From a virus: 18,558 nucleotides of DNA. Within the stretch, counting starts at the first letter, position 1; every line of letters starts with the position of its first letter. The notes below the pieces were generated by a model, which ran no database searches, was not told the origin of the DNA, and saw nothing but the letters and a program-made list of their open reading frames with translations. The stretch lies in the UHGV virus genome UHGV-0255022; one strand, given 5' to 3'. The position numbers and the translations under genes were made by a program. Positions 15,776 through 16,598 of this stretch are shown piece after piece.

Positions 15776-15912
15776 TGTTTGAGTCTTATATGGCAGAACG
15801 TCTTCGCCGCCGCTGGGTGCGCCTGCGCTTATATCGTTTTCCTAGTTCTGTTTTGACCGATTACCGGATACTGAAGAATTACGCCAAAACACTGAAAGGA
15901 GCTGCCGCATGA
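15772..15912 (+). CDS. ylcG: YlcG-like small protein
   Basis: 46-codon ORF ([46 protein letters not shown]) overlapping the rusA stop and the start of the Q-position gene. It is below the ORF-track threshold. Confidence 0.5.
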
Positions 15913-16598
15913 ATACCCAATATTTACAGTATGTCCGCGAGCAACTCATTGTGGCTACCGCTGATTTGAGCGGAGCAACGAAAGGACAGCTTGAAGCCTG
16001 GCTGGAGCATGCACAATTTGATACTGGTACATACAAACGAAAGAAGCCGCGCATTCTGGATGAGGTAACTGGCAGGATGATTACGCTGGATAATCCGCCG
16101 ATTTCCGGTAAGCAGTTGTACGCAAAAGGTTCATCCATTGCACTGGTCAGCCAGGTTGAGTTCTCAACCTCGTCATGGCGCCGCGCGGTTCTGTCTCTCG
16201 AAGAACATCAGAAAGCGTGGTTGCTGTGGAGTTACAGCGAAAGTGTTCGCTGGGAACATCAGGTCACCATAACGCAGTGGGCATGGAGCGAGTTTAAGAC
16301 TCTGTTGGGTACCAGGAAAATTGCAGGTAAAACACTGGAACGTTTGAAGAAGTTGATCTGGCTGGCGGCACAGGATGTGAAGAACGAGCTGGCAGGGCGT
16401 AAGACCTATGAATACCAGGAGCTGGCATCACTGGTGGGAGTGACATCAAAAAACTGGTCTGAGACATTTACTGAACGCTGGGTTGCAATGAAGCACATTT
16501 TTCTACAGCTTGATAGCCAAGCTTTATTGCTTTTAACGAAAACACGTTCAAAACAAAAGACCATATTTTCACAGCAAGATATTGCAAAACTGGATTAA
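15909..16598 (+). CDS. Putative late-gene antiterminator (Q-position protein)
   Basis: 229-aa ORF between the nin genes and a terminator-containing late leader. Assigned by position; the protein has no cysteines, unlike zinc-finger Q proteins, so the family is uncertain. Confidence 0.45.
   Translation: MNTQYLQYVREQLIVATADLSGATKGQLEAWLEHAQFDTGTYKRKKPRILDEVTGRMITLDNPPISGKQLYAKGSSIALVSQVEFSTSSWRRAVLSLEEHQKAWLLWSYSESVRWEHQVTITQWAWSEFKTLLGTRKIAGKTLERLKKLIWLAAQDVKNELAGRKTYEYQELASLVGVTSKNWSETFTERWVAMKHIFLQLDSQALLLLTKTRSKQKTIFSQQDIAKLD

What the first reader, a model, noticed from the sequence alone, without database searches (positions are those of the whole stretch)
15909..16598. Q-position protein lacks cysteines, unlike zinc-finger Q antiterminators
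The 229-aa ORF sits exactly where Q should be (after rusA/ylcG, before the terminated late leader), but contains no Cys residues. As I recall, lambda-type Q proteins carry a zinc-binding motif. This may be a distinct Q family or an unrelated late regulator; its identity is assigned only by position.
Basis: inference. Interest (0 to 1): 0.45.

Follow-up and report, generated by a model that had tools for sequence, protein, structure and literature searches.

The report
Phage 82-type Q antiterminator gene
The cysteine-free 229-aa protein is a near-identical copy of the well-studied Q antiterminator of phage 82, one of three known, sequence-unrelated Q families, and only the lambda family carries the zinc motif, so the finding is real but ordinary.

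Summary
The ORF is real: 15909-16598 (+), 229 aa, no Cys. It is not an orphan identified only by position.

- **Family:** it matches Pfam PF06323 end to end (E 2.6e-93).
- **Prototype:** it is 97% identical (223/229) to the phage 82 Q antiterminator, which also has no Cys.
- **Published classification:** PF06323 is the Q82 family, one of three Q families. The zinc ribbon belongs to Qlambda (PF03589) only.
- **Cys across the family:** in 83 diverse members, no alignment column holds Cys in more than 19% of sequences.
- **Late promoter:** the DNA downstream fits the published description of 82 pR'. It has a -35 and -10, a conserved spacer block (candidate QBE), TGaTATTTT at +6..+14, GCC at +15-17 and U at +25. 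Two intrinsic terminators follow, then the holin, endolysin and Rz genes.
- **Prevalence:** the same DNA is at least 99% identical in 696 complete E. coli genome records, where it is already annotated as Q.

Verdict: already known, low interest.

One side observation: the terminated pR' leader matches the Rfam isrJ sRNA model below its threshold.

The parts
15896..15901 (+). Ribosome-binding site AAGGAG for Q. The Q start codon overlaps the ylcG stop codon (ATGA), which suggests translational coupling.
   Evidence: Read directly from the sequence. The phage 82 record annotates an RBS at the equivalent place.
15909..16598 (+). Q gene: a Q82-family late-gene transcription antiterminator, 229 aa, no Cys.
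   Evidence: PF06323 E 2.6e-93 over residues 4-219. phrog_304 E 2.6e-107. 223/229 identical to phage 82 Q CAA63332.1. RefSeq annotates the 100% identical DNA as WP_001097224.1, 'bacteriophage antitermination protein Q'.
16582..16587 (+). pR' -35 hexamer TTGCAA, inside the last codons of Q.
   Evidence: Promoter scan: TTGCAA, 17-nt spacer, TATATT. TTG.AAAA is invariant in 7 phages whose Q proteins are 49-87% identical to this one.
16588..16604 (+). Promoter spacer AACTGGATTAAAAATCA, the candidate Q-binding element (QBE).
   Evidence: Inferred. Spacer positions (AAAA, T, ATT of GGATT) are invariant across the 7 phages, which is unusual for a spacer. PMC4914094 places the QBE between the -35 and -10 elements and transplanted 82PR' -31..+30 as the functional QBE-plus-pause unit.
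16605..16610 (+). pR' -10 hexamer TATATT.
   Evidence: Promoter scan. The A.A.TT positions are invariant in the 7-phage alignment.
16617..16617 (+). Inferred transcription start (+1, A).
   Evidence: This is the only numbering that puts GCC at +15-17, the -10-like hexamer at +9-14 and a U at +25, as published for 82pR' (PMC5001585). The Rfam isrJ match starts 3 nt upstream of this +1 (at 16614), so allow about 3 nt of uncertainty.
16622..16630 (+). Sigma70-dependent pause element: the extended -10-like sequence TGaTATTTT (+6..+14).
   Evidence: TG.TAT is invariant in all 7 phages. It fits the published description: closer to consensus than lambda's element and carrying an extended -10.
16631..16642 (+). 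GCC discriminator-like element (+15-17), the AT-rich segment AATGTTGT (+18-25), and the expected pause sites at +25/+26 (T16641, A16642).
   Evidence: Positions match those published for 82pR'. Pausing was not tested here.
16666..16702 (+). First intrinsic terminator of the late leader: a 12-bp stem (6 of the pairs G-C) followed by TTCTGTTTCT. The transcript would end near +80 to +86.
   Evidence: Terminator scan. Folding gives -18.4 kcal/mol, z -4.9, and 0 of 200 shuffles fold as well. A hairpin plus T-run follows the pause element in six of the seven aligned phages.
16780..16805 (+). Second intrinsic terminator: GCCAGC-loop-GCTGGC followed by TTTTTTATT, ending near +187.
   Evidence: Terminator scan. 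Folding gives -11.9 kcal/mol, z -4.1.
16908..18146 (+). First late genes that Q-modified RNA polymerase would reach: holin (16908 or 16920 to 17225), endolysin (17212-17688) and Rz (17685-18146).
   Evidence: ORF list. Annotations in PhiR47_2 and in an E. coli RefSeq genome.

Best explanation
This is the late-gene antiterminator Q of a phage 82-like lambdoid prophage, and a member of the Q82 family (Pfam PF06323). The mechanism below comes from published work on phage 82 Q; it is inferred for this allele from 97% identity and matching cis elements. RNA polymerase starts constitutively at pR' (-35 at 16582-87, -10 at 16605-10, +1 near 16617). Sigma70 re-binds the extended -10-like element TGaTATTTT at +6..+14, and the complex pauses at +25/+26. 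Q bound to a site in the promoter spacer (the QBE, about 16588-16604) engages the paused complex through the beta flap-tip helix, helped by NusA. Q then travels with the polymerase and protects the emerging RNA, so the polymerase reads through the two leader terminators (16666-16702 and 16780-16805) into the lysis and morphogenesis genes. No zinc site is needed. The zinc ribbon is an arm specific to the Qlambda family. The Q82 family has no conserved Cys and is predicted to be an all-helical body with a C-terminal helix-turn-helix (residues about 169-195) and a poorly ordered N-terminal segment.
For: - **Family:** full-length PF06323 match at 312 bits against a cut-off of 25, with no other Pfam family at E<=1; phrog_304 'anti-termination protein Q-like'.
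- **Prototype:** 223/229 identity to phage 82 Q. The whole nin-to-Q segment, 14325-16598, is 95.5% identical in DNA to the phage 82 record X92588.1.
- **Published classification:** PF06323 is the Q82 family, and the three families have equivalent activity and genome position (PMC9388147).
- **Cis elements:** they fit every positional descriptor published for 82pR' (PMC5001585; coordinates). The -35, -10 and pause elements and the spacer block are conserved in 7 phages.
- **Terminators:** two strong terminator hairpins lie in the leader.
- **Published 82Q mechanism:** QBE dependence, sigma70 dependence, NusA stimulation and beta flap-tip-helix contact were shown experimentally (PMC4914094).
- **Viability:** the isolated phage PhiR47_2 carries the same gene with one amino-acid difference.
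Against: - Nothing contradicts the assignment, but activity of this particular allele was not tested.
- Residue 70 is Leu here, whereas it is Ser in phage 82 Q and in all 106 full-length close cluster representatives.
- I could not align the leader directly with the phage 82 pR' sequence. No phage 82 record in the searched phage collection extends past the Q stop codon, and the papers' figures and supplements are not held. The pR' match therefore rests on published positional descriptions.
- Whether Q82 forms a closed nozzle like Q21 and Qlambda is an open question in the literature.
Confidence: 0.95

Rival explanations
1. It is an unrelated late regulator, for example a transcription activator or sigma-like factor, that merely occupies the Q position.
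For: The protein has a C-terminal helix-turn-helix-like segment, and the phage 434 record labels its homologue 'transcriptional activator/anti-terminator'.
Against: It is 97% identical to a protein whose antitermination activity was shown in vitro. PF06323 is the only Pfam match. A constitutive-type promoter followed by a pause element and terminators is the architecture of antitermination, not of activation.
Confidence: 0.01
2. The gene is intact but is a non-functional relic of a defective prophage, or the S70L change has disabled it.
For: Ser70 is invariant in 106 of 106 close full-length representatives and in phage 82, while the window has Leu. Many E. coli lambdoid prophages are defective (general knowledge).
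Against: The reading frame is full length with a good RBS. PhiR47_2, deposited as a complete phage genome with host E. coli C, carries the same L70 allele and a late region that is 99.9% identical. The same sequence is at least 99% identical in 696 genome records. Residue 70 lies in a low-confidence, loop-like part of the model.
Confidence: 0.04
3. It is a divergent member of the Qlambda family that lost its zinc ribbon, that is, a homologue of Qlambda rather than a separate family.
Confidence: 0.25

Closest known systems
Phage 82 Q antiterminator (CAA63332.1, record X92588.1; prototype of Pfam PF06323)
   Same: Same length (229 aa), 223/229 identical and Cys-free. Same gene order (orf151/ninB, ninE, orf96/ybcO, rus, orf45/ylcG, Q). 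The downstream elements fit the published 82pR' layout.
   Different: Six substitutions: S70L, E204Q, R211K, A218T, T219I and N224D. The pR' identity could not be checked base by base.
Gifsy-1 AntQ (STM2617/SL2579), Salmonella
   Same: Q82 family and about 67-69% identical. Antiterminator activity and toxicity on overexpression were studied experimentally (PMC4825925). It has the same conserved pR' and pause block.
   Different: In Gifsy-1, an isrK-orf45-anrP insertion of about 840 bp separates Q from the pR' block. In the window, the -35 lies inside the 3' end of Q.
Phage 434 Q (UMO75331.1)
   Same: 87% identical. The depositors annotate it as 'Q82-like', and it has the same ylcG-Q junction and conserved promoter block.
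   Different: The late region downstream is different. It has Cys at residue 108 where the window has Ser.
Qlambda (PF03589; PDB 4MO1, 7UBN)
   Different: No detectable sequence similarity. Qlambda has a zinc-ribbon arm at residues 114-152 that contacts DNA and the RNAP zinc-binding domain, and this protein has no Cys. The pause is at +16/17 rather than +25.
Q21 (PF06530; PDB 6JNX, 6P18) and Pseudomonas AlpA (PDB 7XYA/7XYB)
   Different: No sequence similarity. The closed-nozzle mechanism is proven for these proteins but not for Q82, and 82Q can load onto a complex carrying a long RNA, which argues against a closed ring.

Membership tests
Q82 family (Pfam PF06323, Phage_antiter_Q) | Full-length match to the family profile above the curated threshold | tested here: met
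   312.2 bits against a cut-off of 25; residues 4-219 match profile positions 1-216 of 220. Phage 82 Q, Gifsy-1 AntQ and N15 gp40 hit the same model.
Q82 family (Pfam PF06323, Phage_antiter_Q) | Homology to the phage 82 Q prototype | tested here: met
   223/229 identical with no gaps.
Q82 family (Pfam PF06323, Phage_antiter_Q) | Gene lies between the nin region and the late (lysis) operon, directly upstream of pR' | tested here: met
   The order is ninB, ninE, ybcO, rusA, ylcG, Q, leader, holin, endolysin, Rz.
Q82 family (Pfam PF06323, Phage_antiter_Q) | Cognate late promoter with a sigma70-dependent pause element (extended -10-like sequence, GCC at +15-17, pause at +25/26) | tested here: met
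   The sequence features are present at the published positions. TG.TAT is invariant in 7 related phages. Pausing itself cannot be tested here.
Q82 family (Pfam PF06323, Phage_antiter_Q) | Q-binding element in the promoter spacer | tested here: inconclusive
   A conserved spacer block lies at 16588-16604, and the literature places the QBE between -35 and -10.
Q82 family (Pfam PF06323, Phage_antiter_Q) | Intrinsic terminator(s) between pR' and the late genes | tested here: met
   Two hairpin-plus-T-tract terminators with z-scores of -4.9 and -4.1.
Q82 family (Pfam PF06323, Phage_antiter_Q) | [quoted passage not shown] | not testable with these tools
   Shown for phage 82 Q in PMC4914094. Inferred here from 97% identity.
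Qlambda family (Pfam PF03589) | Match to the PF03589 profile | tested here: not met
   No PF03589 hit at E<=1, while lambda Q hits it at 6e-58. hhalign probability is 0.4%.
Qlambda family (Pfam PF03589) | Cys4 zinc-ribbon arm | tested here: not met
   0 Cys. No column of the 83-sequence family alignment (A3) holds Cys in more than 19% of sequences.
Qlambda family (Pfam PF03589) | Four-helix-bundle body with an HTH | tested here: inconclusive
Q21 family (Pfam PF06530) | Match to the PF06530 profile | tested here: not met
   No hit at E<=1.
Q21 family (Pfam PF06530) | [quoted passage not shown] | tested here: inconclusive

The most novel reading that the evidence does not exclude
Two readings go beyond the textbook, and neither is excluded. 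(a) The three Q families that look unrelated in sequence share one helical HTH core, with lambda's zinc ribbon as an insertion. This has already been suggested from AlphaFold models (Wen et al. 2022). (b) The short terminated pR' leader of Q82-type prophages belongs to the same RNA family as the Salmonella sRNA IsrJ. If so, the 696 complete E. coli genome records with at least 99% identical DNA would constitutively make an IsrJ-like RNA as a by-product of Q regulation, and that RNA might have a regulatory role of its own, as shown for StxS from Stx phages.
Probability: 0.4. Interest if true: 0.35.

Novelty: already known. Interest (0 to 1): 0.08.

Why it matters
As a discovery it matters little. 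The gene is a standard, already annotated Q82-family antiterminator, and the lack of cysteines is the normal state of that family. It does correct a rule of thumb: 'Q proteins have zinc fingers' holds for only one of the three Q families, so absence of Cys should not flag a Q-position gene as anomalous. The Q82 family is the only Q family without an experimental structure: the PDB sequence search found no relative, and the literature still lists its mechanism, closed nozzle or open shield, as an open question. This window adds nothing new towards answering that.

Tried and rejected
- **NCBIfam:** no model hit. This reflects that library's coverage and is not evidence against the assignment.
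- **PDB sequence search:** nothing at E<=10, so no solved Q82-family structure is available for a direct comparison.
- **Profile comparison with lambda Q:** hhalign of the Q82 family profile against lambda Q found no similarity.
- **Direct comparison with the phage 82 pR' sequence:** this failed on several routes.
  - The only phage 82 record among the matches, X92588.1, ends at the Q stop codon.
  - A full-text search for leader sequence strings found nothing, and they are absent from the text of PMC5001585.
  - The supplement with the template sequences is not held.
  - PMC207295 and PMC2075354 are not held.
  - The pR' assignment therefore rests on published positional descriptors plus comparative conservation.
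- **Alternative zinc site built from His:** rejected. There are only 4 His and none is conserved.
- **Foldseek against the PDB:** no hit reached E<=0.001. The fold similarity to other Q proteins is suggestive, not proven.
- **First homologue search:** it listed only relatives at 74% identity or above. A second search with a profile of distant phage homologues was needed to build a usable alignment for structure prediction.

Full report
**Observation.** The ORF at 15909-16598 (+) is real. It starts at ATG, encodes 229 aa and ends at TAA. It has an AAGGAG ribosome-binding site 7 nt upstream, and its start codon overlaps the ylcG stop codon. It contains no cysteine codon and four histidines. A Cys-free protein of this length is not rare in itself. 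At the 1.15% Cys frequency I assumed, about 7% of 229-aa proteins would have none.

**Identity.** The protein is not identified by position alone.
- It matches Pfam PF06323 (Phage_antiter_Q) over its full length, at E 2.6e-93 and 312 bits against a cut-off of 25. No other Pfam family matches at E<=1.
- It matches PHROG 304, 'anti-termination protein Q-like'.
- A DNA search of phage records found the classic phage 82 nin-to-Q record X92588.1. That record's annotated 'phage 82 Q antiterminator' is 223/229 identical to this protein, with no gaps.
- Window 14325-16598 is 95.5% identical in DNA to the phage 82 record.
- Phage 82 Q itself has no Cys.
- An isolated phage, PhiR47_2, carries the same Q-to-lysis region at 99.9% identity, with one amino-acid difference in Q.
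- The Q gene plus leader (1002 bp) is at least 99% identical in 696 complete E. coli genome records. The best-matching records, which are 100% identical, annotate it as 'bacteriophage antitermination protein Q'.

**What is already known.** Yin et al. 2022 (PMC9388147) state that Q proteins fall into three families: Q21 (PF06530), Qlambda (PF03589) and Q82 (PF06323). The three have equivalent activity and genome position but no obvious sequence similarity.
- My scan agrees. Lambda Q hits PF03589, and its residues 113-152 weakly resemble the DnaJ CXXCXGXG domain. Phage 82 Q, Gifsy-1 AntQ and N15 gp40 all hit PF06323.
- A profile of 83 Q82-family sequences shows no similarity to lambda Q (hhalign probability 0.4%).

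**Cysteines across the family.** In an alignment of 14 phage homologues down to 24% identity (including N15, VP882 and phiHAP-1), the invariant residues are M1, R10, A16, L97, W104, Y109, W126, Q155, V178, W183, W191 and L206. None is Cys. Of the 186 homologues retrieved in the two database searches, 74 have no Cys. In the 83-sequence alignment, no column holds Cys in more than 19% of sequences, and no conserved His cluster exists. The family therefore has no conserved metal-ligand set.

**Cis elements.** Downstream of Q there is a sigma70-type promoter: TTGCAA (16582-87), a 17-nt spacer, then TATATT (16605-10). Bird et al. 2016 (PMC5001585) describe 82pR' as follows:
- a -10-like pause element that is closer to consensus than lambda's and carries an extended -10;
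- GCC at +15-17;
- an AT-rich stretch at +18-25;
- pausing at +25/+26, with U as the natural +25 base.

With +1 at A16617, the window reads TGaTATTTT at +6..+14, GCC at +15-17, AATGTTGT at +18-25, and T at +25. Every descriptor fits.

I aligned this region from seven phages whose Q proteins are 49-87% identical to this one (434, PPompW, Gifsy-1, a Klebsiella phage, CobraSix and phiES15, plus the window). Several features are invariant: the -35 (TTG.AAAA), part of the spacer (T..ATT of CTGGATT), the -10 (A.A.TT), the TG.TAT of the pause element, and the G of GCC. A terminator hairpin follows in six of the seven.

A conserved spacer is what a Q-binding element would look like. Wells et al. 2016 place the QBE between -35 and -10 and used 82PR' -31..+30 as the transplantable unit. 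I therefore mark 16588-16604 as the candidate QBE, as an inference.

Two intrinsic terminators lie in the leader. The first is at 16666-16702 (-18.4 kcal/mol, z -4.9) and the second at 16780-16805 (-11.9 kcal/mol, z -4.1).

**Mechanism.** The following was shown for phage 82 Q in PMC4914094 and summarised in PMC9388147.
- Activity requires the QBE and a sigma70-containing complex paused at +25.
- 82Q contacts the beta flap-tip helix.
- NusA stimulates engagement when the RNA is short.
- Q and NusA shield about 10 further nucleotides of emerging RNA, which prevents terminator hairpin formation.

This is inferred for the window's allele from 97% identity and matching cis elements. Whether Q82 forms a closed nozzle, as Q21 and Qlambda do, is stated to be open, because 82Q can load onto a complex that already carries a long RNA.

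**Structure prediction.** An AlphaFold2 model built from the 83-sequence alignment has mean pLDDT 81.5 and pTM 0.69.
- Residues 82-226 form a confident helical domain, with helices at 82-95, 99-109, 115-133, 140-161, 169-176 and 180-226.
- The N-terminal 18-80 is mostly low-confidence coil with a small hairpin.
- Foldseek ranks AlpA and Qlambda first and second, but with E-values of only 0.14 and 0.26.
- This reproduces what Wen et al. [quoted passage not shown]

No solved structure of a Q82-family protein exists in the PDB copy searched. The paper search from 2022 onward found no report of one either.

**Verdict.** The feature is already known and already annotated, and interest is low.

**Side observations.**
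- **IsrJ-like leader.** The predicted leader RNA (16614-16693) matches the Rfam isrJ model over its full length at 30.4 bits, below the gathering score of 37 (E about 1e-3).
  - In Gifsy-1, isrJ (100 bits) starts exactly at the conserved +1 to pause-element block of the Q82-type pR' and ends at the first terminator. Phage CobraSix has a match too, at 62.6 bits.
  - IsrJ therefore looks like the constitutive terminated late leader of a Q82-type operon. That fits the report that it is highly expressed in all conditions.
  - The three papers I read do not describe it that way.
- **S70L.** The window's Q has Leu at residue 70. Phage 82 Q and 106 of 106 close full-length representatives have Ser. 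PhiR47_2 shares the Leu.
- **CII-like site.** A CII-site consensus (TTGC-N6-TTGC) lies on the minus strand at 16574-16587, overlapping the pR' -35. The phage 434 record annotates the equivalent site as paQ.

Noticed in passing
window 16614-16693 (+); L005:2747-2821; L007:1406-1479: The terminated pR' leader matches Rfam RF01393 (isrJ, a Salmonella Gifsy-1 Hfq-binding sRNA) over the full model, but below threshold: 30.4 bits against a gathering score of 37, E 9.6e-4. In Gifsy-1 and phage CobraSix the above-threshold isrJ matches lie just downstream of the conserved Q82-type promoter block; their 5' part carries the pause element TGnTAT and they end at the first terminator. IsrJ therefore looks like the constitutive pR'-tR' leader RNA of Q82-type late operons, analogous to lambda 6S RNA and StxS. 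The three papers I read do not describe it that way.
   Followed up: partly
window 16116-16118 (codon 70 of Q): Residue 70 is Leu. It is Ser in phage 82 Q and in all 106 full-length close cluster representatives. The isolated phage PhiR47_2 shares the Leu. The residue lies in a low-confidence loop of the model. Its functional effect is unknown.
   Followed up: partly
window 16574-16587 (-): The minus strand reads TTGCAATATCTTGC, which fits the CII-site consensus TTGY-N6-TTGY. The phage 434 record annotates the equivalent site as CII binding and the paQ -35. In the window it overlaps the palindromic pR' -35 TTGCAA (16582-87). I saw no convincing -10 at the spacing I recall for lambda pRE, so this is a weak lead.
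   Followed up: partly
window 16635-16608 (-): A promoter-like site lies on the opposite strand: TTGGCA, 16-nt spacer, TAAAAT, matching 10 of 12 positions, which is better than pR' itself at 9 of 12. It overlaps the pause element and points back into Q. The TTGGCA is not conserved in the related phages, so it is probably a by-product of the AT-rich pause region.
   Followed up: no
L005:1878-2760 (Gifsy-1) compared with window 16582-16610: In Gifsy-1, an insertion of about 840 bp separates the Q gene from its conserved pR' block. The insertion carries isrK, a C4-type antisense RNA, orf45 and the antirepressor-like anrP. In the window and in phage 82-like phages, the -35 sits inside the last codons of Q.
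   Followed up: partly
window 13017-14060 (-): A 347-aa ORF on the opposite strand has a lipoprotein-like N-terminus (…SVGSC). RefSeq annotates it as an alpha/beta hydrolase. It sits between a ybcK-like recombinase gene and the nin region and looks like a moron (an accessory gene carried by the prophage).
   Followed up: no
window 18178-18519 (-): A Bor-type lipoprotein gene lies downstream of Rz. RefSeq annotates it as iss (increased serum survival) and PhiR47_2 annotates it as Bor.
   Followed up: no
window 16908-16922 (+): The holin has two possible starts. PhiR47_2 uses TTG at 16908 (MAIHMHEK…), and RefSeq uses ATG at 16920. This could be a lambda S-like holin/antiholin dual start. Not examined.
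   Followed up: no
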